Of a DNA stretch of 64,000 bases, positions 24,639 through 64,000 are shown piece by piece. Every line of letters begins with the position of its first letter. The stretch's first letter is position 1. Source of the DNA: Escherichia coli (GTDB lineage Bacteria; Pseudomonadota; Gammaproteobacteria; Enterobacterales; Enterobacteriaceae); NCBI RefSeq assembly GCF_036507355.1, contig NZ_AP027877.1; one strand, 5' to 3'. The notes under the pieces are model-generated. The model was not told the origin of the DNA. It saw only the letters and a list, made by a program, of their open reading frames with translations, and did not search any database. The position numbers were made by a program, and so were the translations under genes.

Positions 24639-24639
24639 A

Positions 24640-34146: not shown

Positions 34147-34201
34147 GGTGATGCTGCCAACTTACTGATTTAGTGTATGATGGTGTTTTTGAGGTGCTCC
34201 A

Positions 34202-34899: not shown

Positions 34900-35069
34900 G
34901 TTGGAGTCACTACCGTAGAAGTTAAATCAGGAAAATCGAAAAAAATGAAACGTTCGGCATTGTCGTCGAGTTCCGCTTAATGACGTATCCATCCCGTTTT
35001 CCCCTTCACGTTTTCATGTTTGATAGAGGGCAAAATTGAGCCCTCTCAATCAAGATAATGAGTGAAAAC

Positions 35070-43724: not shown

Positions 43725-43775
43725 ACCGCCCCGGGAATCCTGGAGACTAAACTTCCTGAGAAAGAGGTAAACAGG

Positions 43776-44102
43776 ATGACTAAAAATACTCGTTTTTCCC
43801 CCGAAGTCCGTCAACGGGCAGTCCGTATGGTTCTGGAAAGTCAGAGCGAATATGACTCACAATGGGCGACAATTTGTTCCATTGCTCCAAAGATTGGCTG
43901 TACGCCGGAGACTCTGCGTGTCTGGGTTCGCCAGCATGAGCGGGATACCGGGGGCGGTGATGGAGGGCTCACCACCGCTGAACGTCAGCGTCTGAAAGAG
44001 CTGGAACGTGAAAATCGTGAACTGCGCCGCAGTAACGATATCCTTCGCCAGGCTTCCGCTTATTTTGCGAAGGCGGAGTTCGACCGCCTCTGGAAAAAAT
44101 GA
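43776..44102 (+). CDS. IS3-family transposase OrfA (IS629-like)
   Basis: 108-aa [31 protein letters not shown]... Confidence 0.9.
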
Positions 44103-44989: not shown

Positions 44990-45153
44990 GTTCACAGATA
45001 AAACACTCTCCAGGAAACCCGGGGCGGTTCACACTATTATTTCTCCGGTTAGCCTACAACAACGTTTTTATCAGAAGCTCAACCAGCAGATAATAGAAAT
45101 GAAAAACCCATTGCAGTGAAATTATTTTTGACAACATACAGCAGGAGTAAAAA

Positions 45154-47444: not shown

Positions 47445-47480
47445 CACTCGAATAAAAATTACAGCAAGGATAAAACCACA

Positions 47481-50003
47481 ATGCTACAGATAATTGGTGC
47501 GTTAATTTTACTGGTAATCGGTTTTGTTATTATAAAAGCGTTGTTTAAGGCATCTCTCAATATTCTAGGTGTGATATTAGGATTGGGTGCATTGATTGTT
47601 GCAGGCCCACCTTTATTGGCGGGCTATATTGTAGAGCGCGTAACCTATGCGCTTCACTCACGTTGGCTGCTGGGTGTACCTCTTGCCATAGCAGGAATGG
47701 TGATTAGCTTTATGTGGGGACTTGATGGTAAACATATTGCCTACGAAGCCTATTCATTTGATTCAATGAAGTTTATTTTAACCGCTGCATTTGCCAGTGG
47801 CCTGCTTGCAGTACCTGTACAAACCAAGGCTATTCTACAAAACGGGCTTATACCAGCCGATATCAATGCCAAACTTAAAGAGTATTATTGCTGTTTTTAT
47901 ACGTCTTACTTTTTGATGGCCTGCTCTGCGGCTACACCGTTTATAGCCTGGCAATATAATATCTCATCTTCACTGATGTGGTGGACAGGATTGCTATACT
48001 GGATAGCAGCCTTACTGACACAGTTCTATGCGGCAAACCAAATTCAGGAACTCAAGAAGTTAACTAATGCCATCAATACAGGGTTAAATGAGCAAAAAGC
48101 GATCAATAACCAACTTTGGCTGACGGAACTAAAAGAAGGAAGTAACCTCTCAGCAGAATTCGTAGAGACTATCTATCTTAAGTTGGTCTCACAGCATATT
48201 TTTCAGGGCGATACTCGAGAGCAGGATCTGGCTGGTGAAAACTGGCTTTTAAATGATGCCTGGTATGAAAGAAAGATGGCTGAATTTAATGAGCAGTTAA
48301 ACAGTAAAATTGTACACTCATCAGATGAGCTAAGAAGCCTTTTTGGTAATAGGCTGAATTTACCCTCTGCTGCGAATGATGATCTCCTGAACCGTTATCT
48401 TGATGGTGGGAACTATTATTCTTTTTCGGATGGTCGAAAATTTGTCTCGTTTCACTATGTCGACGAGCTTTGTACCTGCACTTCATGCGGTTTGAGCGAG
48501 ATTAAAAACGCAAAACACCAGGACGGTTGTGGGAGCCAGGAATGGTATTGCTCTGATATTTGCCGGGAAACGGAAAAACTCTGCATTGAAATTCACAAGC
48601 GACCACAGGCTGAATTTATTTCCAGTGCAGCAACAAACGGTCTGATTCTCATGACGCTCCCGGAGGCCTGGAATACTAACGAAAAAATGTTTGCAGTGGG
48701 AGGACAAGGACATGGTTTTGCAGCCGAACGGGGAAATCATCTTACTGACAAAATCCAACTAAAAGATGCACATATTCTCGGTGATGATAATGCGAAAAAT
48801 GGTGCAGACAGGCTGGTTAACGGTTCAGAGATTCAGACCAAATACTGTGCAACCGCTGCACGTAGCGTCGGTGCTGGTTTTGACGGACAAAACGGTAATT
48901 ATCGCTATTATGACAGTAACGGAACCCCAATGCAGTTAGAGGTTCCGAAAGACCAGTATTCGAAAGCGCTTGAAACGATGGAGAACAAAATTCGCGATGG
49001 CAAAGTCCCCGGCGTTACCGATCCTGCAGAAGCCACAAAACTTGTACGTCAGGGACACCTGACTTATAGCCAGGCACAAAACATTACTAAGTTTGGCACG
49101 TTCGAATCTATCACTTACGACATTGCGGAAGGATCTATCATCAGCCTCGCAGCTGGAGGTATCAGCTTCGGTCTGACAGCTTCTATTTTCTACCTCAATA
49201 CCGGCGATCGTAAGGCTGCGTTGCAAACGGCAGCAATACAGGCAGGTAAAACATTTACCCGCACACTGACAGTTTATGTGACGGTACAGCAATTACACCG
49301 TATCAGTGCCGTTCAGGGGTTACTTAAAAATATTGATTTTGCCGCTGCCAGCCCGACAGTTCGTAATGCGCTTCAACAGGGAGTCGGAGCTAACAATCTC
49401 AACTCCCTTAACAAGATGATGCGTGGCACACTGGTTACCTCTTTCGCACTGGTCGCCGTGACCACTGGTCCGGATATGATCAAAATGGTGCGAGGTCGTA
49501 TTTCTGGGGCACAGTTTATAAAAAATCTGGCAGTTACTTCATCTGGTGTGGCTGGGGGGGCAATTGGTTCTATTGCTGGCGGAATGATGCTTAGTCCATT
49601 AGGTCCTTTCGGTGCTTTAGCAGGACGCGCAGCTGGTGGCTTGTTAGGCGGTATGATTGCCACAGCGATTTCCAAAAAAATAGCGGGTGCACTGGTTGAA
49701 GACGACCGAGTAAAAGTGCTGGCTCTCATCCAGGAACAGGTTACATGGCTTGCAACAAGTTTCATGCTTACAGCACACGAACTTGAAAACCTGAACGCGA
49801 ATCTGGCAACAGTAATTGACCAAAAAACCCTGGAGGTTATCTTCGCCGCAAAAGAGCAAGACCGAGCAACGGCCAATATGCTGATTAAACCACTTGTAGT
49901 AAGTGTGGTTAAGCAACGACCGGTCCTGAGCTATGAACAATCGCAAATCTGCGAAATGGTCGATCAGCTTGATACATCGGTTTCATTATCTGCTGTTGCA
50001 TAA
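47481..50003 (+). CDS. Hypothetical large membrane protein (N-terminal TM helices, Cys-rich central region, C-terminal Gly-rich TM region)
   Basis: 840-aa ORF with AAGGA ribosome-binding site; Cys cluster CTCTSCG...CGSQEWYCSDIC; Gly-rich C-terminus. Confidence 0.6.
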   Translation: MLQIIGALILLVIGFVIIKALFKASLNILGVILGLGALIVAGPPLLAGYIVERVTYALHSRWLLGVPLAIAGMVISFMWGLDGKHIAYEAYSFDSMKFILTAAFASGLLAVPVQTKAILQNGLIPADINAKLKEYYCCFYTSYFLMACSAATPFIAWQYNISSSLMWWTGLLYWIAALLTQFYAANQIQELKKLTNAINTGLNEQKAINNQLWLTELKEGSNLSAEFVETIYLKLVSQHIFQGDTREQDLAGENWLLNDAWYERKMAEFNEQLNSKIVHSSDELRSLFGNRLNLPSAANDDLLNRYLDGGNYYSFSDGRKFVSFHYVDELCTCTSCGLSEIKNAKHQDGCGSQEWYCSDICRETEKLCIEIHKRPQAEFISSAATNGLILMTLPEAWNTNEKMFAVGGQGHGFAAERGNHLTDKIQLKDAHILGDDNAKNGADRLVNGSEIQTKYCATAARSVGAGFDGQNGNYRYYDSNGTPMQLEVPKDQYSKALETMENKIRDGKVPGVTDPAEATKLVRQGHLTYSQAQNITKFGTFESITYDIAEGSIISLAAGGISFGLTASIFYLNTGDRKAALQTAAIQAGKTFTRTLTVYVTVQQLHRISAVQGLLKNIDFAAASPTVRNALQQGVGANNLNSLNKMMRGTLVTSFALVAVTTGPDMIKMVRGRISGAQFIKNLAVTSSGVAGGAIGSIAGGMMLSPLGPFGALAGRAAGGLLGGMIATAISKKIAGALVEDDRVKVLALIQEQVTWLATSFMLTAHELENLNANLATVIDQKTLEVIFAAKEQDRATANMLIKPLVVSVVKQRPVLSYEQSQICEMVDQLDTSVSLSAVA

Positions 50004-50192
50004 TGAAAGGTATAAATTCATTACCATCGTGATATGGTGCTTCAGACGAAGCAAACTTAAATACCATTAACCCCATGATACTATTGTAAAATCCAAAAAA
50101 AATAATAGTAATCATCATAATGAACTGGTTCGAACAGACTGCGGAAGAGTATGGAGAATTAACAAATAAGGGGGCATTTGCCCCCTTCATCA

Positions 50193-50618
50193 TTATTTCA
50201 GTCGTTTACCTGCATCATCAACGACTTTCTCGCCGTCTTCCTTAGCAAATGCGCCTTTTTGCGCATCCGGAAGAATATCCAGTACCACTTCGGAAGGACG
50301 GCACAGACGCGTTCCCAATGGTGTCGCCACAATCGGGCGATTAATCAGGATCGGATACTGAAGCATAAAATCGACTAACTGATCGTCAGTAAACTTATCT
50401 TCCGCAAGCCCCAGTTCTTCATAAGGTTCAACATTTTTACGCAATAGTGCCCGTACCGTTATCCCCATATCTGCGATGAGTTTGAGCACCTCATCGCGTG
50501 AAGGTGGATTTTCAAGGTAAAGAATAACGTTCGGTTCAGTACCGCTGTTGCGGATCATCTCCAGCGTATTACGCGACGTGCCGCAGGCTGGGTTGTGATA
50601 AATAGTGATGTTGCTCAT
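50193..50618 (-). CDS. arsC: Arsenate reductase (glutaredoxin-type)
   Basis: 141-aa ORF MSNITIYHNPACGTSRNTLEMI... recognised as ArsC. Confidence 0.92.
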   Translation of the reverse strand: MSNITIYHNPACGTSRNTLEMIRNSGTEPNVILYLENPPSRDEVLKLIADMGITVRALLRKNVEPYEELGLAEDKFTDDQLVDFMLQYPILINRPIVATPLGTRLCRPSEVVLDILPDAQKGAFAKEDGEKVVDDAGKRLK

Positions 50619-50630
50619 ATCAATATCTCA

Positions 50631-50840
50631 TTACAAAGTGAAAGAGAGACGTAGCGCCAGCGCGGCCAGCGTTACAAACAGCACAGGCAGAGTCATGATG
50701 ATCCCGGTGCGGAAATAGTATCCCCAGGTGATGGTCATGCTCTTCTGTGAAAAGACATGCAGCCAGAGTAGCGTTGCCAGGCTACCAATAGGTGTAATTT
50801 TCGGCCCCAGATCGCAGCCAATCACGTTGGCATAAATCAT
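50631..50840 (-). pseudogene. arsB: Arsenite efflux pump ArsB, C-terminal fragment only
   Basis: 69-aa ORF matches only the C-terminus of ArsB; no upstream arsB or arsR sequence. Confidence 0.8.
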
Positions 50841-51072
50841 CGCCTCTTTGATAACGCATCATACTGCCAGCGGAATAACTCTCTTCGTCAATACGGCTCT
50901 CGCTGTACGCTTACCCATCTAGAGAGGTTTCAGGTGATTATCGATGTCAGAAGACTGAATGATTCAGTCGTTTACTTTGAGATAGATCAGAGGTTTTTCA
51001 CTACCTGTGTTCATCACATGGCTACGAATAGTAGAATCCAAGCATAAATTAACGCTTAGAAAAGTTGAGCTC

Positions 51073-52272
51073 ATGAGATTCCACCCTGAAGGGCCTTCCA
51101 TACCCGATATCCTCTTAGAACGCTGTGATACAGGTCGAGTTGTATTTCTCTGTGGCGCTGGGGTTTCATTACCTTCAGGGATGCCAAGCTTTGTAGAGCT
51201 TACCCAGCATGTAATTGAATACTTTGACCCACCACACGATTCAGAAATCATGGCAGCATTTCGCCCATGGCTTCACGACCAATCTTCAGCTAATGTCCCT
51301 CTCGACCAAATTTTCAACCTCCTACATCTGGAATATGGCAAGGATGAGGTGAATGCTTTGGTATCAAAGCGTCTGGGGACTGCAAGAACTGATATAGAGA
51401 TTGGACGTGAGCATGCCCTGATTAAAAGAATTTCCTCAAATCAGAGTGGTGTCCCACAGATTGTCACAACGAACTTTGACCGACTGTTCGAGGATAACCA
51501 AGCGCAAGATAATCTAACTCGATATGTGCCGCCAGCTTTCCCAAATCTGAATTTCGGTTCGACAATTGAGGGAATAACATATCTTCACGGCCGCCTGGTC
51601 GACGAAAATGCTGTAAACCATCCTTATGTGCTGAGCAGTGCAGACTTTGGAAGAGCATATCTTTCAGAAGGATGGGCGACCAATTTTATTAAGCTTCTTC
51701 TGGAACGATACATCGTTGTTTTGGTCGGTTATCAGGCAGAAGACCCACCAGTTAAATACCTCCTTCAGGGTCTCAATCATGATGGCCAGTATGATCGTTC
51801 CAGACTTTATGCATTTGATCGCGGCCTTGCCGAGGATATCGAAGCCAAATGGCGTGACAGAGGAGTTACAGCCATAGCCTATTCCGATCATCCAGCTCTT
51901 TGGAAGACTTTGGAAGCATGGGCTGAGCGAGTAGATGATCCACGTCGATGGCGAGCTTCTATTATCGCTAAAAGCCAGCAAGATCCGAAAGTTCTAGCAC
52001 CGTATGAACGTGGTCAACTTGCCCATATACTTCGCACTACACAAGGTGCGAAATTGTTCTCTGAAGCTGTTCCTCTTCCCCATCCAGAGTGGCTTTGTGT
52101 GATGGATGCAAATATTCGGTCAGCCAAACAGAAGAAAAGATACTACGAACTTGATGACAATGATGCAGAGACCTTCGATCCACAAGAAGCTTATGGGCTT
52201 GATGACGATCTGCAAGATATCGCTGATGATGAACGTAAACGTGGAGTGAGTAACGATAATCTCCTTGAATAG
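51073..52272 (+). CDS. SIR2-like (sirtuin-family) domain protein; first segment of a larger interrupted reading frame
   Basis: SIR2-type motifs VVFLCGAGVSLPSGMPSF and VTTNFDRLFE; ends at an in-frame TAG (52270). Confidence 0.7.
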   Translation: MRFHPEGPSIPDILLERCDTGRVVFLCGAGVSLPSGMPSFVELTQHVIEYFDPPHDSEIMAAFRPWLHDQSSANVPLDQIFNLLHLEYGKDEVNALVSKRLGTARTDIEIGREHALIKRISSNQSGVPQIVTTNFDRLFEDNQAQDNLTRYVPPAFPNLNFGSTIEGITYLHGRLVDENAVNHPYVLSSADFGRAYLSEGWATNFIKLLLERYIVVLVGYQAEDPPVKYLLQGLNHDGQYDRSRLYAFDRGLAEDIEAKWRDRGVTAIAYSDHPALWKTLEAWAERVDDPRRWRASIIAKSQQDPKVLAPYERGQLAHILRTTQGAKLFSEAVPLPHPEWLCVMDANIRSAKQKKRYYELDDNDAETFDPQEAYGLDDDLQDIADDERKRGVSNDNLLE

Positions 52273-52308
52273 CGCGACGAAGATGATAACCCGTCAGATT
52301 ACCATCGC

Positions 52309-52998
52309 TTGGCTGGATGTTTGGAGACAATGCCGAAACGATTGAGCCATCTCATGGTCTGGTTCTGCAAATCTCTTGATAGCCCCGTGATGGCTTGGTG
52401 GGCTATCCGAAAAATCAGTATTCATCCTCTACTACTACAAAATATTGAACGCAATATTGAGCATTCAACATCAATCCACAAACGCGCTCGTCAACTGTGG
52501 GGCTTAATTCTTGAACATCATAAAGATCCCCGCAATCGTCGTTATGACGTCGATTGGTACGACTTAAAAGCTCGAATTACAAAACAAGGCTGGACAGCTG
52601 GTGTCTTACGAGAATTTCGTAGGGTAATGACACCCCGATTGGAAAAGAAGTTGCCGTATGGATTGGGTGAAGTCAGACCGCCAAGCGGCTCCTGGGAGGA
52701 AATTCAGTTCAGCGAATTTGGCCAATTTGAAGTTGTGTTCACCGAAAGACATGATGACGATTTAGACGTACCTGACAATGTATTACTACAAGTATTTAAT
52801 GCCTTAGAAGCGCAAATAATAATTGCCTCCGGAATGTTAGAGGATATTGATACGCACTACTTTCCAAGCCCAAGTTGTTATCCAGAACGTGCGGTTGAAG
52901 GAGAAGAACATTTCGCGAAAGGTGCGGAGGTATTAACTTGGTTTGTCCAACTTTTAGACCGAGTTGTTATGAAGTGGCCAGAATTGGCTAAGGCATAA
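52309..52998 (+). CDS. Hypothetical protein; same frame as the upstream SIR2 ORF, likely central part of one disrupted gene
   Basis: Frame open from 52273 with no stop; ends at an in-frame TAA (52996). Confidence 0.5.
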   Translation: MAGCLETMPKRLSHLMVWFCKSLDSPVMAWWAIRKISIHPLLLQNIERNIEHSTSIHKRARQLWGLILEHHKDPRNRRYDVDWYDLKARITKQGWTAGVLREFRRVMTPRLEKKLPYGLGEVRPPSGSWEEIQFSEFGQFEVVFTERHDDDLDVPDNVLLQVFNALEAQIIIASGMLEDIDTHYFPSPSCYPERAVEGEEHFAKGAEVLTWFVQLLDRVVMKWPELAKA

Positions 52999-53103
52999 GT
53001 AACAACTTGGCCAGTTAAGGAGCCATTTTTCTTCCGAAAGCTTAGACTTTATGCATTCAGTAAAAAAGGCGTCTTTGAGGCTGACCGTGTTGCCGAAGAG
53101 CTT

Positions 53104-54882
53104 TTGTCTTTGGATCAAAGTGGATTTTGGGACACAAATATTACCCGCGAACTTCTTTTTCTGCTCACTGATCGTTGGGAAGAATTCTCGCAAGAAAATC
53201 AGAATCGAATTATAGAGCATATATTAACCGGCCCGAACCATTTACTTTATTTGTCTGAGGAAGACATTCCAAAAGAAAGAGAGATATTAGCAGCTAGATA
53301 CGCTCGTTATCTCGAACTAAACGGCTGTAAAGTAACCACTATTCATCGTGACCAACTAACTGCGATGATTAAAAGAATTCCTGACTGGAATGATGGCTGG
53401 GCTACATCTGTTGTCATCAATTGGGGTTCACGGACAGGTTGGGTTCGTACAGACGAAAAGCCAGATATAATCTTAGATCTTCCAGCAAACGAAATAATCC
53501 CAAAAGTAAAAGAGATACTTAAACGAGAGGATGATAGCTTTACTAGTAGGCAACCCTTTGTCGGATTGATAAAAGAAAATCCGCGTAAAGCTTTGTCTGC
53601 ACTCGCTATTGCAGGGAGAGGCGGTGATTACCCTAAGGAATTTTGGTCGCCAATGATAAGTGAGTTACCTATAGATCTTAAACCAAGGGTGAGACGAGTA
53701 TTCCTGAACCGAATTGTGCGATTGCCAGTTACAGCTTTGGTCGAGTTACGACATACATTAAGTAACTGGCTTGAACAAAATTTAGCTGCGACTCTTGAAT
53801 TTGATGAGGATCTCGGGTGGGCAGTTTACGATCATGTCATAGCAGGCATACTGAGTGGTGGCGCCAGTGCAATACGGAGTAGTTTCGGAGAAGTTATCCG
53901 GAATGGAGAAGTTGTAATACAGTCTCGCCGCACGTTCAGTCATGCAATCAATGGTCCTGTCGGTAAATGTACTCAAGCGCTTTTTCAAGCAATGCCAAGT
54001 GAAGAGAAAAAAGCTGGTTCGCTTATTCCTTACTCTATTAAGTCTCGTATTGAACATCTTTTTACTGCACCAGGAGAAGGAGCGGACCACGCTATAGCTA
54101 TAACGTCTCGCAATCTAAATTGGCTAATGTTTGTTGATCCTGCATGGGTAAAGGAATGGCTTATACCCCTTTTGGATTTAAAACATCCTGCAGCAGAACC
54201 AGCATGGAATGGTTATCTTCAGTGCAATGCTATGCCTTCAATTGCAGTAGCTGAACTTATTAAACCAGCTTTTCTTAACCTTATCCCTTGGATCGAATCT
54301 CTTTCTTGGGAAAAAGATTATTCAGTTCGAGCTTCGCAATGGCTTGGCTTAATGAGAATGTTTCACCCTGATGAGCCCTCCAGTCCTTCCAGGAATGAAA
54401 TGCGCTCCATATTACGAGCATTATCTGACGAGGCTCGAAATCGTTTTATTTCCTGGTTAGGATTGGTCGGGCAGAAAAACGAGAGTGGCTGGGTTAAGTA
54501 TGTGATCCCATTAATCAGAGAGGACTGGCCCAAAGAACGCCAATATAGAACCACGAGCTCTGTAAAAGCATGGATTGGTTTACTTGACGATACTGGCGAT
54601 AAGTTTCCGGAGGTTTACGATTCAGTAAAAACATACTTAGTACCAATCGAGACAATTGATCATTTGTTCTACAGATTCACTCGGGAGCTCGGTGGTAAAG
54701 GAGCAATTGCGGCTATTTTTCCAGAAACCACGCTTGATTTAATGGACAAAATAACACCACTGATATTCACGCGTACATCAGGAGAGCTGCAGAAGATTCT
54801 TGAGCTAATTGAAGATACAGATACAAGTCTGATCAAGGATTCTCGGTACTTACGGCTTATTGCACTGGTTGAGAAAAATTAG
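53104..54882 (+). CDS. Hypothetical protein; same frame as the two upstream ORFs, likely C-terminal part of the SIR2-containing gene
   Basis: Frame open from 52999 with no stop; 592-aa helical protein, no motif recognised. Confidence 0.5.
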   Translation: MSLDQSGFWDTNITRELLFLLTDRWEEFSQENQNRIIEHILTGPNHLLYLSEEDIPKEREILAARYARYLELNGCKVTTIHRDQLTAMIKRIPDWNDGWATSVVINWGSRTGWVRTDEKPDIILDLPANEIIPKVKEILKREDDSFTSRQPFVGLIKENPRKALSALAIAGRGGDYPKEFWSPMISELPIDLKPRVRRVFLNRIVRLPVTALVELRHTLSNWLEQNLAATLEFDEDLGWAVYDHVIAGILSGGASAIRSSFGEVIRNGEVVIQSRRTFSHAINGPVGKCTQALFQAMPSEEKKAGSLIPYSIKSRIEHLFTAPGEGADHAIAITSRNLNWLMFVDPAWVKEWLIPLLDLKHPAAEPAWNGYLQCNAMPSIAVAELIKPAFLNLIPWIESLSWEKDYSVRASQWLGLMRMFHPDEPSSPSRNEMRSILRALSDEARNRFISWLGLVGQKNESGWVKYVIPLIREDWPKERQYRTTSSVKAWIGLLDDTGDKFPEVYDSVKTYLVPIETIDHLFYRFTRELGGKGAIAAIFPETTLDLMDKITPLIFTRTSGELQKILELIEDTDTSLIKDSRYLRLIALVEKN

Positions 54883-55040
54883 CATTTATGGTTTTTTACC
54901 GTTGTTGATTACTCAGCAACACTTTTCGACATGCCGTAGCGCTTATCGCCTGTTCTTGACTAAGATGAGAAGCAGGCGTTAAAGTTTGGTTAAAGGAGAA
55001 CCTCTAACCATTCCTTCTGGAAGAAATAATCTTTGGAGTA

Positions 55041-55769
55041 TTATTGAAATTGCTCAAATATACCATGCAACCCAATAAATTTTATTTTTAGTGCAGGATC
55101 ATGCCTTAGAACAGTCTCAAGTGAGTTCCGCTCATAAATTATTGATTGTGCTTGTATTGAGCCGTTCCATGAAGGCAAAAGCAGTAAAGCAGATGTTTCC
55201 AAATCAATACCCCACCAATCGTTAACATAGCAATTTAAAAAATCAACAAGAGCCTTAATCGCAATAAAAGCATCTTTTTCGGTATATGTTTCAGGATCGA
55301 GGGATATACCTGATATATTACTTTTAGCTTGCTCGGAATTAATATTAGACTGGTGTTGATAAGCAATTTTTCCTTCACCCGGTTTAGTTTCTATTGTATC
55401 AGTGAAAATTTTAATCTTAGGATGCACCAATGCATTTCGTTGTGCTATTAATTCTTTTATTATTTGTGTTTGAGTGGTTCCACGAGGTAAAGACATGTCT
55501 TTATGCCATTGAAGAGTATAGTCAAATTTATCAAGTGAAGAGAACCTGTCAATTTGATCTTTTAACTTTTGCGTTATTTCTATAGAAGATAAAAATGAGT
55601 TAGCTGCAGCCTCAATAGCGTAGTTAATTGAAAGTACACTTGATTTGGCAAGTGTTTTTTTGATGTGTGATTTTTTTGTTGCAGCTGATAATTCATAAAG
55701 AGTTATTGCATCAGAAAAAAGCTCAAAAAAGCTGTTCTTGGTTATTTCAACTTTTCTTTTCACACGCAA
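55041..55769 (-). CDS. Hypothetical protein (third gene of AT-rich operon)
   Basis: 242-aa ORF, visibly AT-rich; no motif recognised. Confidence 0.6.
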   Translation of the reverse strand: MRVKRKVEITKNSFFELFSDAITLYELSAATKKSHIKKTLAKSSVLSINYAIEAAANSFLSSIEITQKLKDQIDRFSSLDKFDYTLQWHKDMSLPRGTTQTQIIKELIAQRNALVHPKIKIFTDTIETKPGEGKIAYQHQSNINSEQAKSNISGISLDPETYTEKDAFIAIKALVDFLNCYVNDWWGIDLETSALLLLPSWNGSIQAQSIIYERNSLETVLRHDPALKIKFIGLHGIFEQFQ

Positions 55770-55852
55770 CCCTCTGCATAAAAAATAAAATCATATAGAC
55801 AGAATACAATTTCCTATAATCTTTACATTCTACTAATTGTGGATATAAATGG

Positions 55853-57325
55853 CTATCGAGAATAAGAACTGGGTTTAGGAAAACCACCTCTGACGACGAC
55901 AACAACAATTGCAACTTGAGATTGACCTGTTGGATGAGTGAATACTTCAATATCATCCTCTATTACTCCCACCGGCGCTGATTTTGACGTTGATTCCAGA
56001 ACAACCAAAATACCGATACGCTTACCTAATCCAATGGCATAAGCTGCTGTTTGATCGAAATATTTTTGAAAATCCTTGGGAAAAAGAACCTTATTATTTT
56101 CAACTTTTAGTTCTATCGGAATGTCTTCAAATGTGAGATCCGTTATCCCGCCAGCAGCCTCTGGATGGCCTTGTAATTTCTCGCCAATCTCATTCCTACT
56201 TCTAAGCATTTCGGCTATTTTACGCTGAAATTTTTGCTCTGATGTGCCAGCAATAAATAAACTAGCTTTAAGAGCTTGTGCTGCAACATTTCCTAAGCCG
56301 CCAAGTATAACCATTGTATTAGCAATGTCATCTGAGTGTAATCCAGGGAAAGCTCGTAATATGTTACGAATTTTTATAAGATGCCTATCGACGTTTGAAA
56401 ATCCAGTTAATGGAGCTTGAGCGGAATCACTCCCTTCAAGTAGTAAGCGCCTATGTCCTACGATAGCAATATTTTGGCAATTACTTAAATTGTCAAACTC
56501 GGCAGCATATAGGAATTCGTAAGGTCTCGAGCCAAATGAATTTGCCACTTCCAAGACGACACGACCGATCCCCTTCAGTGTGAAGGGGCCTTCCCCCTCT
56601 GGTTTCTCAAATCTAAAATCAGGCAACCAGTCTCGCTCACGAGCATCAATTGTCACTGGCTTTAATGAGAGGAAATTTGCACTTTTTGGCCAATTTGAAA
56701 CCCTGACCTCTATGTTAAGGTCATAAGCCGTACCCGGCTTAAGATAATTCCATTGCTGAGCTGGTTCCCCATCAATATCAAACTTTAGAAATGCAACTGT
56801 CGATTCTTGTGTTTTATTCTCTTTTGTCTCTTTACTAGATATTCCTTGCCTAATCTCCTCAATATTTTTATCGCGAAGATTTGCGAATAAGAGTAGTGGC
56901 AATGACCAGCTTGTTAACTGGTCTTGTATTTGTTTTAATGAATCTAATTTACTGATTGAACGGACTTGCTCTATAAATTCATTAAATTGTTTGTTCTCCG
57001 AGAGACTCGTCGTCATGTCGATCTCTGATGCTTTTAATTGTGCTGAATTTAAAAACCTTTGAGCATCAGTCTCAGCATTACGTATAGCATGTTTCCACTC
57101 AGCTAGAGTTACAAATATAGTCATTGCTATATAATATGCACGATATTGATCTTCAACATATCCCTGACCGAGCTCATCGAGCGTTTCATTGAGCTTTTGA
57201 CACGCTTCTTTAAGTTTCACCAAGTCATTCGGAATGGACTTGAGTGCACCATCCAACGCTGCTGCAATCTCAACCCTCGGAGAAAAAGCTTGGCGGAAAA
57301 TCTCGAAATTTGGCTCGTTCTTCAT
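55853..57325 (-). CDS. Hypothetical protein (second gene of AT-rich operon)
   Basis: ORF 55853-57367; start placed at ATG 57325; overlaps the 3' end of the upstream gene. Confidence 0.6.
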   Translation of the reverse strand: MKNEPNFEIFRQAFSPRVEIAAALDGALKSIPNDLVKLKEACQKLNETLDELGQGYVEDQYRAYYIAMTIFVTLAEWKHAIRNAETDAQRFLNSAQLKASEIDMTTSLSENKQFNEFIEQVRSISKLDSLKQIQDQLTSWSLPLLLFANLRDKNIEEIRQGISSKETKENKTQESTVAFLKFDIDGEPAQQWNYLKPGTAYDLNIEVRVSNWPKSANFLSLKPVTIDARERDWLPDFRFEKPEGEGPFTLKGIGRVVLEVANSFGSRPYEFLYAAEFDNLSNCQNIAIVGHRRLLLEGSDSAQAPLTGFSNVDRHLIKIRNILRAFPGLHSDDIANTMVILGGLGNVAAQALKASLFIAGTSEQKFQRKIAEMLRSRNEIGEKLQGHPEAAGGITDLTFEDIPIELKVENNKVLFPKDFQKYFDQTAAYAIGLGKRIGILVVLESTSKSAPVGVIEDDIEVFTHPTGQSQVAIVVVVVRGGFPKPSSYSR

Positions 57326-59843
57326 ATTCTTTCTCCAACTCAGCCGTAAGACCATTCCATTTTTCAATTAAGTCATTATAGGGTTCGCAAACACTTATGG
57401 CATGTTCAATGCTAGCTGCTTCTGTAACTAAAGCAGCCTTAAGTTTCCATTGTGTATTTCTTTCATCATTTGGAATTTCTTCCAGTAGTTCCTTTAAACA
57501 AACATTTGCAGTTACGTTATCACCACACTTGCTTAACGCAGCCACGTACACTAATGCTTCAATAAATTGTTGAGGTTTAAATGGTTTCAGAGCATTGAAT
57601 GCTTTTTGGAGATCGTCTTTACAATTTCGAAGCTCATTATGTGGCGCTCTTAATATCACTGAGATGCAGTCATCAATAGAAATACTGCGAGTATACTCAT
57701 CCTGAATTGCTTTGAGTGCGACTTTGACAAAACCGGGAATATCATCAAAATGAAAACGCAATCGATTGATAGCATCATAAAGTGCACTTCCTTCTAAAAT
57801 TAATAATATATTAGAAAGAAGCAATCCAATTTTCCCCTTTCTCTCTTCATCTGATAAGCAAAGAGAAGAAAAAACGTCAATGCATTCTACAATGAAATTA
57901 TCTTTTTTATCTTGTTGAATATAATAGCAAATTAGATTCCATAGCCGGGATCTCACAAGTCCCCGTTTCTCCTCAGGAAAAGATCTACGGCTCAAAGCGC
58001 GAACAGCATACTGATGCACCATAACATATTGATCTAATAGCAAGACTGAATATGCTTCGAAGAATAAATCTGGGAAATTCTTCACTAAATCATAGGGAAC
58101 ATTTTCCCACGCTTGTACGGCACGTGCTCGAATCAATGTACTCTCATCCATAAGAGCACGATACCAATCGGAGAGCACTAGTGTTAGGCTGTCAATACCA
58201 GTTAATAACTTAGAAACATGGGCAATCATGTTCCCACGCATTTGAGTTTGTTCTTCTGGTAAGCTTCTATAGAGATGAAGAAAATCATCGATTCCTTCAC
58301 TCCCTCTAGATTTAGCTCCAATCGCAGCCCATTCAATCAATGCACCCTGTAAGCCATCAATAGCATTACGCTTATTACTTTTATCTAAATGATCTAGAAA
58401 ACTCTCATTTATTTCTATGATTTTTTCTTTATTCAACGCCTCAAATTTCTCGCTTAGCGTTGCAGCCGCTCCGATCAAATCGTCAAAATTATCAACTGCA
58501 AGCTCAGCAAATTCGTCCCAAGAGTGTCTAAAGAATTGTCCTGCATCATCCATGCTATCCTCTGGATTTTCCACAGCAGCCCAGAGCAAACGCCTAAAAG
58601 CTATTTTTTGTGTCTTTCCTGTTTTACTTTTTTTTCTATAGTTATTTCGCAGTACAGATCTGTAAGCTCTATTGGCCTCATGTCTCCCAATATCATCTTT
58701 GTCAGCAAGATAGGATTGAATAACTTTATCGCTTTCATCGGGAAATCTATCTAAGTATTTCGTAGCAGCCTCCCGAAGAAAGAAAAGAATGCTGCTATCT
58801 CTCCGCTCCTCCGGGAGTAGAGTCCGTCGACGCATCAGCTTAGCAAATATACTTCTAATATGTCTTAGAAGCAGCTCATCATCATCCGATGCAATAATTA
58901 TCTCAATAGCAAATTGAAATTTTCCCCGGTGAGTATCTTTTATGTATTCATCAACAACATCACAGATATCAGCTTGTCTTTTTTTAAAAAGTGACTGAAT
59001 GGGGCCTTTATTAAGTACTTTTCGCTCAAATGTGCCAATCATCATTCCAGGAGGAGATTCAACAGCCATTCTAACAAAGTGGTAAAGGACTTTTAAGAAA
59101 TCATCTTCAGATAGATTCTCTGCTTCCAAGAGGATTGCTTCTATAGCTGGTGGACAATATTCGAAGTTGTTTATTAAATATACTGAAATTGCCAGTTTTT
59201 CCGCTTGTGATAATTCAGTTCTTATTAAAGCTTTTGCTGCTGGCATTGAATATGGTAATTTCTCATGTAACACTGCAGGCAACAAGTGTTCAATTATTTT
59301 ACTTGTAAATGTCTCAGGTGCCAGATTAGCAAGTTGTTCCAAACGGGGATCGTTGTTCTCTATATCCTCTTGATCGAGTTCATCAAGCAAATCAAGCACA
59401 AACGTTTCTTCTAGAGTAAGTGAAAGACGTAATACTGCTCGTTCTTGTTGTCTATTGAGCTGCTTCTGCTTTCTCTGCCTTTCTTCTTCTTTGCGAGCCA
59501 AATTTCGTTCTTCGGCAGATTTTTCTCTTGGGCCTACAAACTCTAAAATATTGGGAAATCCCACCGGAACCCGTTGATTACAATGTTTACAGTTCTGTTT
59601 ATAGAAGCTGTAAACCGAGTCTTCCAGCAGCCAGCTAAGCATTGAACTTTGCTTAACAAATTTGCATTGAACTCCCATGTGACCAATGGGTAACCCTGTT
59701 TCAGCCTCAATCATGCCTCTCCCCTCTGATCGAATGAATTCAGAGTGAGAACACCAGTTACTAAGTAGGTGTACAGCACGGAGATTTCGTTGACCAGCTT
59801 CGATTGCCTCTTCAAATCTTTTTTTATCTTCAAAATCATCCAT
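57270..59843 (-). CDS. Hypothetical large protein (first gene of AT-rich operon), N-terminal Cys/His cluster
   Basis: 857 aa; N-terminal C/H-rich segment (CSHSEF...C...CKHCNQ), then charged coiled region and helical repeats; no NTPase motif. Confidence 0.6.
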   Translation of the reverse strand: MDDFEDKKRFEEAIEAGQRNLRAVHLLSNWCSHSEFIRSEGRGMIEAETGLPIGHMGVQCKFVKQSSMLSWLLEDSVYSFYKQNCKHCNQRVPVGFPNILEFVGPREKSAEERNLARKEEERQRKQKQLNRQQERAVLRLSLTLEETFVLDLLDELDQEDIENNDPRLEQLANLAPETFTSKIIEHLLPAVLHEKLPYSMPAAKALIRTELSQAEKLAISVYLINNFEYCPPAIEAILLEAENLSEDDFLKVLYHFVRMAVESPPGMMIGTFERKVLNKGPIQSLFKKRQADICDVVDEYIKDTHRGKFQFAIEIIIASDDDELLLRHIRSIFAKLMRRRTLLPEERRDSSILFFLREAATKYLDRFPDESDKVIQSYLADKDDIGRHEANRAYRSVLRNNYRKKSKTGKTQKIAFRRLLWAAVENPEDSMDDAGQFFRHSWDEFAELAVDNFDDLIGAAATLSEKFEALNKEKIIEINESFLDHLDKSNKRNAIDGLQGALIEWAAIGAKSRGSEGIDDFLHLYRSLPEEQTQMRGNMIAHVSKLLTGIDSLTLVLSDWYRALMDESTLIRARAVQAWENVPYDLVKNFPDLFFEAYSVLLLDQYVMVHQYAVRALSRRSFPEEKRGLVRSRLWNLICYYIQQDKKDNFIVECIDVFSSLCLSDEERKGKIGLLLSNILLILEGSALYDAINRLRFHFDDIPGFVKVALKAIQDEYTRSISIDDCISVILRAPHNELRNCKDDLQKAFNALKPFKPQQFIEALVYVAALSKCGDNVTANVCLKELLEEIPNDERNTQWKLKAALVTEAASIEHAISVCEPYNDLIEKWNGLTAELEKEYEERAKFRDFPPSFFSEG

Positions 59844-60246
59844 TTAGATAACACCCTTATAAGGAACATGTACTCATCTAAAATGCTGTTACCGGATTAT
59901 TATACCTAAAACAATGAATGCTGTGTATTATGAAATGTGATATAAGTCAATTAGTTACATATAAAAACCAACTCACATCCAAAAGGATAGTATTTCGAGG
60001 TTTGTAGCATCATTAAATGTGAACTTATTTATCGCCCCCTCAAGTTAACTAATAAATAAGTTATAATTTACATATACTTCTGGAATTTAGAAACCTTATA
60101 TCTAATAGTTGAGTAAGTTAATAATCAACTTGAGTGTGATTCATAAAAAAAATAATTATTATTTTCAGCCCCTCCATTATGGAGGAGCAATAATAGTATA
60201 GTTTTCCTGTATTCCTAACGATCCAGTTAGGCTTAGAGAAATCTAA

Positions 60247-61443
60247 TTATGAAGCACTCCTGAGAGCAACCCTTCCAACTTTATCAATATAATCCGCATA
60301 CCACTGCATCATCTCTCTCCTGCCTTCCAAATACAGCGCATGGTTGTACGTCCCGCGAATCGCATTCTTATCGACATGCGCAAGCTGGGTTTCAATCCAT
60401 GCGGTATTGAACCCTTCCTCATGCAAAATCGTACTCATCGTGTGGCGGAAACCATGCCCCGTTACCTTCCCCGTGTACCCAATCCGCTTAAACACCTGAT
60501 TAATACTCGCTTCGCTCATTGTTTTGCGGGGATCATTCCTCCCAGGAAACACCAGAGGATATTGCCCAGACATCACTTTGAGCTGCTGTACGATCTCCAG
60601 CGCTTGGGTAGAGAGGGGCACCAGGTGAGGCCGTTTCATCTTCATGCGCTCTGCAGGTATTTCCCACACCGCTTTTTCAAGATCAAACTCACTCCAGAAA
60701 GCACCTCGAAGCTCACCGGTGCGAACCCCCGTAAGGATCAGCAAACGTGCGGCAAGAACAACCAGCGGGCTGCCTGTATAGCCAGAAAGAGCTTTAAAGA
60801 AATCTGGTAACTCCTCAACGGTAAGGAAGGGATAATGCTTCGATTCATGCCCTGACATCGCGCTGGTTAGATCCGCAGCCGGATTGTATTCCGCACGACC
60901 GGTAACTATGGCGTAGCGAAAGACTTCGCTGCAGCGCTGGCGAACTTTCTTGGCCTTCTCTGTCGCACCACGGCTTTCCATTCGACGCAGTACATTCAAC
61001 AGAACAAGAGGCTTAATTTCATTGACTGGCTGCTGACCGATATAGGGAAAAATATCTTTATTTAAAGCTTCGATAATGTCCGATGCATACCCTTCTGACC
61101 ATCTGCTCACCTTCGTACCGTGCCACTCAAGCGCCACAGACTGGAACGTATTATTGAGCTGCACATCACGAACCAGCTTTTCTTCTTTCTTGGCAAACGA
61201 TGGATCGATACCCTCGGCCAGCTTTTTCTTGGCTTCATCGCGTAGTGCCCTCGCTTGAGCAAGGGACACTGCCGGATAAACGCCAAAAGCCATACGCTTC
61301 TCTTTTCCATTGAAGCGATATTTCATTCGCCAGTATCGAGAACCAGAGGGAACGACTTCAAGATACAAACCAGCACCATCTGCCAGCTTATAGGCTTTCT
61401 CTCTGGGTTTAGCTGCATCTACCTGTCGCGCATTTAGCTTCAT
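60247..61443 (-). CDS. int: P4-type tyrosine integrase (island right end)
   Basis: Start taken at MKLNARQVDAAKP (ATG 61443); boxes VRTGELR, GHGFRHT, RGTYNHALY; paralogous to the integrase at 14127. Confidence 0.9.
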   Translation of the reverse strand: MKLNARQVDAAKPREKAYKLADGAGLYLEVVPSGSRYWRMKYRFNGKEKRMAFGVYPAVSLAQARALRDEAKKKLAEGIDPSFAKKEEKLVRDVQLNNTFQSVALEWHGTKVSRWSEGYASDIIEALNKDIFPYIGQQPVNEIKPLVLLNVLRRMESRGATEKAKKVRQRCSEVFRYAIVTGRAEYNPAADLTSAMSGHESKHYPFLTVEELPDFFKALSGYTGSPLVVLAARLLILTGVRTGELRGAFWSEFDLEKAVWEIPAERMKMKRPHLVPLSTQALEIVQQLKVMSGQYPLVFPGRNDPRKTMSEASINQVFKRIGYTGKVTGHGFRHTMSTILHEEGFNTAWIETQLAHVDKNAIRGTYNHALYLEGRREMMQWYADYIDKVGRVALRSAS

Positions 61444-61606
61444 TGGGGGCATCTCCCTGGACCGAACACAGAATGCCCCCACTTATGCCCCCAACTGTAA
61501 CTTGATTCCGGTTGAGTCCAGTTGATAACAGGAGATAAAATACGGGCTAGAAACCGCAGTATACGGGCTTTTAGTTGATTTCGGTAGACTTGGGAAGAGT
61601 TTGAAA

Positions 61607-61655
61607 TGGTGCCGATAATAGGAGTCGAACCTACGACCTTCGCATTACGAATGCG
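61607..61655 (-). other. thrW: tRNA-Thr(CGU) 3' fragment, 49 nt (anticodon arm to CCA); att-core remnant, not a complete tRNA
   Basis: Reverse complement CGCATTCGTAATGCGAAGGTCGTAGGTTCGACTCCTATTATCGGCACCA folds as anticodon stem-loop (anticodon CGT), T-arm and acceptor 3' strand; 5' half absent. Confidence 0.8.
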
Positions 61656-61768
61656 AGCCAGTTCGAAAATGAGTATAACTATGAGTACATAAAAAACAAA
61701 TAATTAATAAAAATATATTAATCAATATGATATCACATAAGTTACGGTTCAACGTCTAATTAATTTAT

Positions 61769-61849: not shown

Positions 61850-62603
61850 CCGAGTCCTAATCATTCTTGTAACATCCTACACTTTTGTGCTTATTGCCTA
61901 CAGTGAACCACGAGAATAATTAAAGACATAAGTGTTCAGATGACGGATATCTCATTAGCAGTGATATAACGTCAGTTTTTGTTCCACTACACATCAGCCC
62001 CCTTCACAGCTGATCAATATTGATCACGCTCCAATATACTGGCGAGAAAAGGACTTACCTGAAGGGTAATATCCCGCAGATAAAGTCCCCGAATAACGTG
62101 ATTACGTGCGATCCTGGCAAGATGAAAATGATAACCAATAGCACGATAATAACGATATGCCAGAACATCCATTGATCAAAAATGAATATCGATGTTTTTT
62201 GCTTTTTCTTATTAGTAATGCAAAAATGGCGCATATTGTTTTTGTTATGCAGATACATCAAGCGAAAATCCCATAACTAATTAGGATTATTACCAAAAAA
62301 TATTCACCAAATTATTTAACCGCTGTTTGTTGTAATGTTTTTGTCATATTCATAGTAACGAATTGGAATAAGTAACGACAACTTAGGGAATAACTCGATC
62401 TAAACTTACCTTTGTAATGGGGATGTTAAATATATATTAATTCCTGTGTTTCTGATTTTACCCGGTAATAGAGAATTATTCTCATAGCAGCTCATCATGA
62501 TTGCACCATACAAATATCATGATGATAAGAGGATATTATTCATTGACTTAAACAAAATGACAAAATTCATAGACCCATAGCCTGGGTACTATATAGGAGT
62601 GGT

Positions 62604-63127
62604 ATGGGCATCAAACAACACAATGGGAATACCAAAGCCGATCGTCTCGCTGAATTAAAAATCCGTTCGCCCTCAATTCAACTGATAAAATTTGGCGCTA
62701 TTGGTTTGAATGCAATTATCTTTTCCCCCCTGCTGATAGCTGCTGATACAGGAAGTCAATATGGCACCAATATTACTATTAATGATGGTGACAGAATTAC
62801 AGGAGATACCGCCGATCCATCAGGAAACCTCTATGGTGTAATGACCCCAGCAGGAAACACGCCTGGCAATATCAACCTGGGTAATGATGTCACCGTCAAT
62901 GTCAACGACGCCTCTGGATATGCAAAAGGAATCATTATTCAGGGCAAAAACAGCTCCCTGACAGCTAACCGACTCACAGTAGATGTTGTTGGTCAAACCT
63001 CTGCCATCGGCATTAATTTAATTGGTGACTATACCCATGCTGACTTAGGCACAGGCAGCACCATTAAGAGTAACGATGACGGCATCATTATTGGGCATAG
63101 CTCAACACTAACAGCCACTCAATTAAC
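62604..63127 (+). pseudogene. Autotransporter/adhesin-like gene, N-terminal 174 codons, truncated by the IS3-family copy at 63128
   Basis: ATG with AGGAG ribosome-binding site; hydrophobic signal-like segment then G/N/T-rich beta-helix-like repeats; reading frame runs into the IS terminus. Confidence 0.5.
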
Positions 63128-64000
63128 TGAATCGCCACGGATAATCTAGACACTTCCGAGCCGTTGATAATACTGGTTTTCATATTCTGTCGGTGACATC
63201 TGATCGCTGGAACCATGCCGACGCTTACTGTTATAAAACATTTCGATGTAATCAAAAATATCGCTGCGGGCTTCTTCCCGCGTTCCGTAGATCTTTTTCT
63301 TTATCCGTTCGCGTTTCAACAACTGGAAAAAGCTTTCTGCAACCGCATTATCATGGCAGTTACCGCGACGGCTCATGCTGCCATCCAGGCCGTGTGATTT
63401 CAGGAACGACTGCCACTCATGGCTTGTGTACTGACTGCCCTGATCCGAATGAACCAGCACCTGTTTTTGGGGATTACGGCGCCATACAGCCATCAGCAGT
63501 GCGTTCAGGACAATGTCCTTTGTCATCCGGGATTGCATGGACCAGCCGATAATTTTGCGTGAGAACAGATCAACAACCACGGCAAGATACAGCCAGCCTT
63601 CGTGGGTCCTGATGTAGGTTATGTCCGTTACCCAACGCTTATCCGGAGCATCCGGATTGAACTGTCGCTGGAGCCTGTTGGGCGACACGATACTGGCCTC
63701 GCCTTTACGTGCCCGCGGGCTCCGGTATCCGACCTGAGCCTTTATCCCGACACGTTTCATCAGTCGCCAGACTCTGTTCACTCCGCACTGTTGCCCGCTG
63801 TCCCGCAGATCCAGATGGATTTTGCGATAACCATAGACGCATCCCGATTCCAGCCAGAACTGTTTAATCTGCCCTGTCAGCCTCAGGTCTGCCTGATGGC
63901 GTTGTGAATGCGGCTGCTGAAGCCAGGCGTAAAAACCACTGGGATGAACATCCAGCACCCGACAGAGCAGGCGAACAGGCCAGCAACAGGTGTTGTCACG
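63128..64000 (-). mobile_element. IS3-family insertion sequence, second copy (partial in window), direct orientation relative to copy at 44-1272
   Basis: Identical to copy 1 from its terminus TGAATCGCCACGG onward; the two flanks differ, so these are separate insertions. Confidence 0.85.
63146..63958 (-). CDS. IS3-family transposase OrfB (copy 2)
   Basis: 270-aa ORF identical to the one at 62-874. Confidence 0.85.
   Translation of the reverse strand: MLDVHPSGFYAWLQQPHSQRHQADLRLTGQIKQFWLESGCVYGYRKIHLDLRDSGQQCGVNRVWRLMKRVGIKAQVGYRSPRARKGEASIVSPNRLQRQFNPDAPDKRWVTDITYIRTHEGWLYLAVVVDLFSRKIIGWSMQSRMTKDIVLNALLMAVWRRNPQKQVLVHSDQGSQYTSHEWQSFLKSHGLDGSMSRRGNCHDNAVAESFFQLLKRERIKKKIYGTREEARSDIFDYIEMFYNSKRRHGSSDQMSPTEYENQYYQRLGSV

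What the first reader, a model, noticed from the sequence alone, without database searches (positions are those of the whole stretch)
62604..63127. Autotransporter-like adhesin gene truncated after 174 codons by the IS3-family copy
The ORF has a strong ribosome-binding site, a signal-like hydrophobic segment and G/N/T-rich beta-helix-type repeats, then runs straight into the IS terminus at 63128. Its position after ychF matches where K-12 carries the ycgV autotransporter gene, so the island and the IS have both hit this locus.
Basis: partly seen in the sequence, partly recalled or inferred. Interest (0 to 1): 0.3.

Follow-up and report, generated by a model that had tools for sequence, protein, structure and literature searches.

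The report
IS-truncated ycgV adhesin pseudogene
This is the first 174 codons of the well-known E. coli autotransporter adhesin gene ycgV, cut off by a 1,229-bp IS3-family insertion sequence, which is an ordinary inactivated gene of a kind common in E. coli.

Summary
ORF 62604-63149 (+, 181 aa) is the 5' end of ycgV itself, not merely an autotransporter-like gene. Residues 1-173 are identical to K-12 YcgV (b1202, 955 aa). The flanking DNA is syntenic with prs-dauA-ychH-pth-ychF-ycgV. Homology stops at 63127. From 63128 the sequence is the terminal inverted repeat (TGAATCGCCACGG...) of a 1,229-bp IS3-family element, whose transposase reads on the minus strand. The ORF runs seven codons into the IS and stops at TAG.

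The fragment keeps the ribosome-binding site, the long signal peptide and about two and a half passenger repeats. It lacks the pertactin-like domain and the beta-barrel translocator, so it cannot work as an autotransporter.

The same junction occurs in at least five draft E. coli assemblies and one GenBank chromosome, where it is annotated as a hypothetical protein. It occurs in none of 5,426 complete RefSeq genomes. The 47.8-kb island sits at the ychF stop codon, 857 bp upstream of ycgV, and is an independent event.

Whether codons 175-955 lie just beyond the IS could not be determined. The IS would end at 64356, outside the window. ycgV is often inactivated in other ways. Novelty and interest are low.

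The parts
61865..62603 (+). Intact ycgV upstream (promoter/regulatory) region between the chromosomal att repeat and the start codon
   Evidence: 100% identical to the island-free relative L002 and 97-99% identical to other E. coli. It contains the region used as the ycgV promoter probe in PMC11681634; the reverse primer of that probe matches 62584-62603.
62595..62599 (+). Shine-Dalgarno AGGAG, four bases before the ATG
   Evidence: Read directly from the sequence. The same start is annotated for ycgV in A30, CE0026f, ET881 and K-12.
62604..63127 (+). 5' fragment of ycgV (codons 1-174 plus 2 nt)
   Evidence: 98.7% identical to the A30 ychF-ycgV region. It differs from K-12 ycgV at 3 of 524 nt, and residues 1-173 are identical.
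62691..62744 (+). Hydrophobic core of the long N-terminal signal peptide (residues 30-47)
   Evidence: Hydropathy scan. The cleavage site was not predicted with a dedicated tool.
63125..63125 (+). C-to-A change three bases from the IS end (codon 174, Phe to Leu)
   Evidence: None of 4,110 ycgV-bearing records has A at this position. The A is present in independent assemblies L002 and L014/L015.
62604..63149 (+). Chimeric ORF: 174 ycgV codons plus 7 IS-encoded codons plus TAG
   Evidence: The exact protein is GenBank BED22764.1, 'hypothetical protein VEE46_25320 [Escherichia coli]'.
63128..64000 (-). IS3-family insertion sequence, copy B (first 873 of 1,229 bp; it would end at 64356), with its right inverted repeat abutting ycgV
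   Evidence: 100% identical to copy A at 44-916. The terminus was defined from five copies.
63146..63958 (-). orfB (DDE transposase part) of IS copy B
   Evidence: Pfam rve 2.2e-33, HTH_21 and rve_2. NCBIfam NF033516 IS3 family transposase, 337.8 bits against a cutoff of 160.
44..1272 (-). Complete second copy (A) of the same IS, in the same orientation, inserted in the ldr/rdl region next to kdsA
   Evidence: orfA, orfB, the A7G slippery site at IS position 303 and the TG...CA inverted repeats are shown.
13901..61747 (.). 47.8-kb island inserted at the ychF stop codon/terminator (context, not part of the truncation)
   Evidence: Absent from the near-identical relative L002. Flanked by repeats of about 105-120 bp that are 84% identical to each other. 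Integrases lie at 14127-15320 and 60247-61482.

Best explanation
The ORF is a null allele (pseudogene) of the chromosomal autotransporter adhesin gene ycgV. A 1,229-bp IS3-family insertion sequence entered the gene between codons 174 and 175, with its right inverted repeat facing the 5' part of ycgV and its transposase genes converging on it. Members of this family move by copy-out/paste-in through a circular intermediate. Transcription and translation from the intact ycgV promoter, ribosome-binding site and start can still occur. They would yield a 181-residue product: the signal peptide, about 125 residues of beta-helical passenger, and seven IS-encoded residues. That product lacks the pertactin-like/autochaperone region, the linker and the C-terminal 12-stranded beta-barrel that inserts in the outer membrane and exports the passenger. 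At best it reaches the periplasm and is degraded, and no adhesin is displayed. Shown: the gene identity, the break point, the IS identity and orientation, and the loss of all C-terminal domains from this ORF. Inferred: the fate of the fragment, and that the insertion is selectively neutral. ycgV is convergent with dhaR, so no polar effect is expected.
For: Identity and synteny with ycgV are shown. In intact YcgV, the Pertactin domain (residues 494-615) and the Autotransporter beta-domain (694-935; TIGR01414 513-955) all lie beyond residue 174. PDB matches to Vag8, BrkA, EspP, Hbp and pertactin fall only in residues 452-955. The IS terminus was defined from five copies, and copy B is 100% identical to a full copy in the window. 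IS3-family hallmarks are shown and in the PGAP 'programmed frameshift' annotation. The same junction is found in independent assemblies: L002, L014, L015 and BED22764.1. So it is real and inherited, not an assembly error. The literature places YcgV among AIDA-I/Ag43-type adhesins linked to biofilm formation (PMC9289746). ycgV is dispensable. A +1 T frameshift allele at nt 553 is listed in 3,232 blocks of the assembly collection, and 24% of complete genomes lack the 5' region. K-12 gene order shows that dhaR is convergent with ycgV.
Against: Nothing contradicts the identification. Some points remain open. The 3' 2.3 kb of ycgV is not in the window and the far side of the IS is outside it, so a simple insertion cannot be distinguished from insertion plus deletion or rearrangement. 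The base three positions from the IS end differs from every known ycgV allele. The one copy with both flanks visible shows only a 1-bp duplication rather than the family's usual 3-4 bp. The 174-residue fragment on its own has no Pfam, NCBIfam or PDB sequence match, but the same N-terminal stretch of intact YcgV is also uncovered by those models. Expression and fate of the fragment were not tested.
Confidence: 0.96

Rival explanations
1. Simple insertion: the rest of ycgV (codons 175-955) lies immediately after the IS at about 64357, followed by dhaR, with nothing lost except gene continuity.
For: Copy A of the same IS in this window is a clean insertion with collinear flanks. The window is otherwise collinear with the standard chaA-ldr-kdsA...ychF-ycgV order. 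IS3-family elements normally insert without deleting target DNA (established knowledge).
Against: Not observable, because the IS runs off the window. Searches for the predicted right junction in GTDB representative genomes and JGI metagenome contigs found nothing. A peptide search for an IS/ycgV fusion ORF found none.
Confidence: 0.6
2. Insertion followed by an IS-adjacent deletion or an IS-IS recombination, so that the ycgV 3' part (and perhaps dhaR or the dha genes) is missing or relocated.
For: Two of the three other complete copies of this IS that I examined sit beside deletions. fliC-H21 in strain E41 lacks 158 bp at the IS. The yaiT-locus autotransporter in NCTC11023 is annotated as missing its C-terminus, with only about 114 bp between the IS and iprA. 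The flank base at 63125 is altered relative to all known alleles. Genomes with this IS carry up to 16 matching places, which gives substrates for recombination.
Against: There is no direct evidence in the window. Contigs in the related drafts simply stop at the IS, as expected for any repeat.
Confidence: 0.35
3. The 181-codon ORF is a genuine short gene, or an assembly or sequencing artefact, rather than a truncated ycgV.
For: GenBank annotates it only as a 'hypothetical protein'. It has no Pfam or NCBIfam hit of its own.
Against: Residues 1-173 are identical to the N-terminus of a 955-aa protein, in the same genomic position. The last seven codons are IS sequence. The junction recurs in at least five independently assembled genomes.
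Confidence: 0.01

Closest known systems
ycgV (b1202) of E. coli K-12, putative autotransporter adhesin YcgV, 955 aa
   Same: Same locus between ychF and dhaR, same start codon and ribosome-binding site. Residues 1-173 are identical and 521 of 524 nt match.
   Different: The window allele stops after codon 174 plus seven IS codons. The Pertactin domain, the Pro/Thr-rich linker and the beta-barrel (residues 494-955) are not part of the ORF.
Common ycgV frameshift pseudogene allele (187-aa plus 716-aa ORFs; e.g. AP027206.1, CP073360.1)
   Same: It inactivates the same gene within 29 nt of the same position (the +1 T is at nt 553, codon 185). It leaves an N-terminal ORF that falls in the same 90%-identity protein cluster.
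   Different: The cause is a single-base insertion, not an IS. The whole gene length is retained. That allele is very widespread (3,232 blocks), whereas the IS allele was seen in about six assemblies.
Autotransporter gene next to hemB (yaiT locus) cut by the same IS in E. coli NCTC11023; K-12 yaiT is likewise an IS-interrupted autotransporter pseudogene (the K-12 part is from my own knowledge)
   Same: The same 1,229-bp IS (97-98% identical), in the same orientation relative to the gene, truncates an autotransporter after its N-terminal part.
   Different: It is a different autotransporter gene and locus. There the 3' part is apparently deleted.
IS3 family insertion sequences; possibly ISEhe3
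   Same: The rve DDE transposase, orfA/orfB with an A7G -1 frameshift site, TG...CA inverted repeats and a size of about 1.2 kb all fit. The 1,229-bp length equals the length listed for ISEhe3 in a MobileElementFinder table (PMC11756799). ISEhe3 is reported in E. coli and Shigella.
   Different: No reference ISEhe3 sequence was available, so the name is only a lead. From my memory, the terminal repeats differ from classical IS3. The single clean copy shows a 1-bp rather than a 3-bp target duplication.

Membership tests
ycgV orthologue (E. coli K-12 b1202) | High sequence identity to ycgV and position between ychF and dhaR | tested here: met
   521 of 524 nt and 173 of 173 residues match K-12. 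prs-dauA-ychH-pth-ychF lies upstream. The dhaR side is outside the window.
Classical (type Va) autotransporter | N-terminal Sec signal peptide | tested here: met
   A basic N-region is followed by an 18-residue hydrophobic core at residues 30-47. No dedicated signal-peptide predictor was available, so the cleavage site is not determined.
Classical (type Va) autotransporter | Repetitive beta-helical passenger domain | tested here: inconclusive
   Repeat units of 47-56 aa were detected, z = 3.0-6.4 against shuffles, with G/N/T-rich composition. A beta-helix is predicted for the YcgV passenger in PMC9289746. No fold was computed here, and only about 125 passenger residues remain.
Classical (type Va) autotransporter | C-terminal outer-membrane beta-barrel translocator (PF03797 / TIGR01414) | tested here: not met
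   Absent from the 181-aa ORF. Present at residues 694-935 (Pfam) and 513-955 (TIGR01414) of intact YcgV. The window ORF is therefore a gene fragment, not a functional family member.
Classical (type Va) autotransporter | Pertactin-like / autochaperone region preceding the barrel | tested here: not met
   PF03212 lies at residues 494-615 of intact YcgV and is absent from the fragment.
IS3 family insertion sequence | DDE (rve) transposase matching the IS3 family model | tested here: met
   rve 2.2e-33. NF033516 scores 337.8 bits against a cutoff of 160.
IS3 family insertion sequence | orfA and orfB joined by a -1 programmed frameshift at an A-rich slippery site | tested here: met
   In the full copy at 44-1272, orfA ends shortly after an AAAAAAAG site at IS position 303, and orfB is in the -1 frame. 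PGAP annotates a 'programmed frameshift' in 98-100% identical copies.
IS3 family insertion sequence | Imperfect terminal inverted repeats ending 5'-TG...CA-3' | tested here: met
   TGAATCGCCACGG at both ends (13 of 13 identical), with further matches up to about position 33.
IS3 family insertion sequence | 3-4 bp target-site duplication | tested here: inconclusive
   For copy A the flanks are GGTACAA|IS|ACCTGAC, against an uninterrupted GGTACAACCTGAC. That gives a 1-bp duplication, or CAA if the terminal CA is shared. The far end of copy B is outside the window. The other copies examined sit beside deletions.
ISEhe3 (named element) | At least 95% nucleotide identity to the ISfinder reference | not testable with these tools
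   Only the length (1,229 bp) agrees. No reference sequence was held, and a literature search for the terminal repeat sequence found nothing.

The most novel reading that the evidence does not exclude
The two 100%-identical, directly oriented IS copies (44-1272 and 63128 onward) bracket 61.9 kb that includes the 47.8-kb island. This could form a composite unit that is duplicated, amplified or moved by IS-IS recombination. In that case the ycgV break would be one end of a larger IS-driven rearrangement rather than a simple gene knockout. The altered flank base at 63125 and this IS's association with adjacent deletions elsewhere leave that possibility open.
Probability: 0.07. Interest if true: 0.3.

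Novelty: already known. Interest (0 to 1): 0.07.

Why it matters
It matters little beyond annotation. The ORF should be labelled as an IS-disrupted ycgV pseudogene rather than 'hypothetical protein'. The strain should be scored as lacking this biofilm-associated adhesin. It adds one more independent inactivation of ycgV to a gene already commonly frameshifted or absent, consistent with weak selection on it. The exact junction (…CAATTAAC|TGAATCGCC…) is a convenient clonal marker for a small E. coli lineage. It also shows that the neighbouring island was gained or lost after the IS insertion.

Tried and rejected
1. I looked for the ycgV/IS junction in 5,426 complete RefSeq E. coli genomes. No place covered at least 80% of a 301-bp junction query.

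2. I made exact-pattern scans for the left junction (GTDB representative genomes) and for the predicted right junction with a 0-8 bp gap (GTDB representatives; JGI metagenome contigs). All found nothing.

3. An exact-protein look-up found only 10-20 kb draft contigs that end in the IS. The 4.64-Mb chromosome holding BED22764.1 is not in the gene-position index. A look-up through the neighbouring integrase did not return it either.

4. A homology search with a hypothetical IS/ycgV fusion peptide returned only short, unrelated fragments. Exact-match guessing of the C-terminal ORF was abandoned because ycgV alleles differ by 14-18 residues or more in that part.

5. I tested whether the A at 63125 is a natural ycgV polymorphism. 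It is not, with 0 of 4,110 records carrying it. The apparently matching odd base beside IS copy A turned out to be a common natural variant, so the idea of a base 'swap' between the two copies was dropped.

6. I tried to derive the IS target duplication from other copies. The fliC and yaiT-locus copies are deletion-associated and uninformative.

7. I tried to name the IS. A literature search for its terminal sequence gave nothing. A look at one K-12 region for the ISX/ISEhe3 remnant was in the wrong place. Only the length agrees with ISEhe3.

8. My initial guess that the window was from Shigella was dropped. GenBank names E. coli as the source of the exact protein.

Full report
**Observation**

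The ORF list gives one ORF at 62604..63149 on the + strand, with an ATG start and 181 aa. AGGAG lies four bases upstream of the ATG.

The N-terminus has a basic region followed by an 18-residue hydrophobic core at residues 30-47. The remainder is 67% G/N/T/D/S/I. It is built of units of about 47-56 residues that align with each other, and with the next units of intact YcgV, at z = 3.0-6.4 against composition-preserving shuffles.

The sequence from 63128 to the window end is 100% identical to a complete 1,229-bp element at window 44-1272. So the description and the coordinates are correct.

**What the ORF is**

A megablast of 61900-63127 against 5,426 complete E. coli genomes matched 4,122 genomes. 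Of these, 4,083 covered at least 80% of the query at 95-99% identity, always under a gene annotated ycgV, 'autotransporter outer membrane beta-barrel domain-containing protein'.

In strains A30, CE0026f and ET881, and in K-12 MG1655, ycgV (955-961 aa) lies between ychF and the convergent dhaR. The window carries prs-dauA-ychH-pth-ychF at 9052-14004, at 99.2% identity to A30.

Against K-12 b1202, the 524-nt fragment differs at three positions, and residues 1-173 are identical. Intact YcgV carries a Pertactin domain (residues 494-615), an Autotransporter beta-domain (694-935) and TIGR01414 (513-955). Its matches to solved structures (Vag8, BrkA, EspP, Hbp, pertactin) all fall within residues 452-955. 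None of that is in the window ORF, which has no family or PDB match of its own.

No other piece of ycgV is anywhere in the window.

**The break point**

Alignment to A30 ycgV runs through ...CACTCAATT. The window then reads AAC TGAATCGCC, where ycgV reads CAC CATTG.

The base at 63125 (A instead of C; Phe174Leu) is found in none of 4,110 ycgV-bearing records. It is present in independent assemblies with the same junction. So it is a real, junction-associated change of unknown origin.

The ORF reads seven IS codons (TESPRII) to TAG at 63147-63149.

**The interrupter**

The element is 1,229 bp long. Its termini are TGAATCGCCACGG...CCGTGGCGATTCA. It has an orfA of about 90 codons, an AAAAAAAG slippery site at position 303, and an orfB in the -1 frame.

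- orfB hits rve (2.2e-33), HTH_21 and rve_2, and the NCBIfam IS3-family model at 338 bits.
- PGAP annotates 98-100% identical copies as 'IS3 family transposase, programmed frameshift'.
- In the window both copies have the transposase on the minus strand, so the right inverted repeat abuts ycgV.
- The length equals that listed for ISEhe3 (PMC11756799), an element reported in E. coli and Shigella. I could not compare sequences, so the name is only a lead.

**Distribution and order of events**

The exact 181-aa protein is GenBank BED22764.1, 'hypothetical protein VEE46_25320 [Escherichia coli]', on a 4,643,937-bp contig. It also lies on three draft contigs of 10-20 kb. Partial versions ending ...TATQL occur in two more assemblies. 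No complete RefSeq genome has the junction.

The draft contig L002 is essentially identical to the window outside the island. It has 1,454 of 1,454 bases matching on the ycgV side, and it differs on the ychF side almost only within the att repeat. Its length fits a contig running from IS copy A to IS copy B. However, it has no island between ychF and ycgV, and the same holds for L014.

Conversely, the same island with its integrase sits beside an intact ycgV in ET881 and in L018, L024 and L026. ET826 and ET729 share the same island/ycgV-upstream junction. The IS insertion and the island are therefore independent. In this lineage the island was gained after the IS hit, or was lost in the relatives.

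The island is inserted exactly at the ychF stop codon/terminator. It is flanked by an island-borne copy of that roughly 105-120-bp segment that is only 84% identical to the chromosomal one. The 857 bp upstream of ycgV are untouched.

**Mechanism and consequence**

Shown: a mobile element separates the first 174 codons from everything an autotransporter needs for outer-membrane insertion and passenger export.

Inferred from the established type Va pathway: the promoter region, ribosome-binding site and signal peptide are intact, so a 181-aa product may be made and exported by Sec. Without the beta-barrel and autochaperone it cannot reach the surface and is probably degraded. The allele is therefore a null for this adhesin.

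The literature groups YcgV with the Ag43/AIDA-I adhesins and links it to biofilm formation (PMC9289746). ycgV is reported to be under YbdO control in an avian pathogenic strain (PMC11681634). Because dhaR is convergent, no polar effect is expected.

Loss of ycgV is commonplace. A +1 T frameshift at nt 553, only 29 nt from this IS site, splits the gene into 187-aa and 716-aa ORFs and is listed in 3,232 blocks of the assembly collection. A quarter of complete genomes lack the 5' region altogether.

**What remains open**

The IS would end at 64356, outside the window, so I could not see whether codons 175-955 follow.

- Pattern scans for the left and right junctions in GTDB representatives and for the right junction in JGI metagenomes found nothing.
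- A fusion-peptide search and a look-up through the neighbouring integrase did not reach the source chromosome.
- Copy A in the same window is a clean insertion, which favours a simple insertion.
- Two other copies of this IS elsewhere are associated with adjacent deletions: 158 bp of fliC in E41 and the 3' part of the yaiT-locus autotransporter in NCTC11023. A deletion is therefore a real alternative.
- I put these at roughly 60:35.

**Verdict**

This is an ordinary IS-disrupted pseudogene of a known, frequently inactivated adhesin gene. It is already present in public records, annotated only as 'hypothetical protein'. Novelty: already known. Interest is low.

Noticed in passing
window 13901-61747 (integrases at 14127-15320 + and 60247-61482 -; tRNA-like fragment 61610-61660): The 47.8-kb insert at the ychF stop codon carries two P4-type tyrosine integrases, one at each end. 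The right-hand one sits next to a 51-nt copy of the 3' end of tRNA-Thr(CGU) thrW. ARAGORN finds no full tRNA in the window. The exact 398-aa integrase occurs in other genomes mostly beside proA (the thrW site) and only occasionally beside ycgV. This suggests a composite or secondary-site island.
   Followed up: partly
window 13901-14020 versus 61748-61864: The direct repeats flanking the island are only 84% identical. The ychF-proximal copy is the divergent, island-borne version of the ychF terminator region, and the ycgV-proximal copy is 100% the chromosomal one. So the crossover was at or near TTCAACGTCTAA, the last 12 nt of ychF.
   Followed up: partly
window 44-1272 and 63128-64000: Two copies of the same 1,229-bp IS, in direct orientation and 100% identical over the 873 bp visible for both, bracket 61.9 kb. 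That interval contains genes known to be essential (own knowledge: kdsA, prfA, hemA, lolB, ispE, prs, pth) plus the island. Recombination between the copies could duplicate the interval but not viably delete it.
   Followed up: no
window 41-43 / 1273-1275: IS copy A in the ldr/rdl toxin-antitoxin region shows flanks GGTACAA|IS|ACCTGAC. The uninterrupted sequence GGTACAACCTGAC has 100% matches in 1,963 records. This is only a 1-bp duplication, or a 3-bp CAA if the IS terminal CA is shared, which is unusual for an IS3-family element.
   Followed up: partly
L005 (E. coli E41 fliC) and L004 (E. coli NCTC11023, hemB-iprA): Other copies of this IS are associated with adjacent deletions. 158 bp of fliC-H21 is missing at the IS in E41. 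The autotransporter next to hemB in NCTC11023 lacks its 3' part.
   Followed up: partly
L011-L013 (AP027206.1, CP073360.1, OX442407.1), ycgV nt 553: A very widespread ycgV pseudogene allele carries a +1 T insertion in codon 185. It gives 187-aa and 716-aa ORFs and is listed in 3,232 blocks of the assembly collection.
   Followed up: yes
window 55853-59843 and neighbours; L017-L025: Next to the right-hand integrase the island carries large proteins (857 aa and about 490 aa) for which no Pfam family is on record. In related islands a 1,210-1,291-aa SIR2_2-domain protein follows them. This looks like an anti-phage defence-type cargo and was not examined.
   Followed up: no
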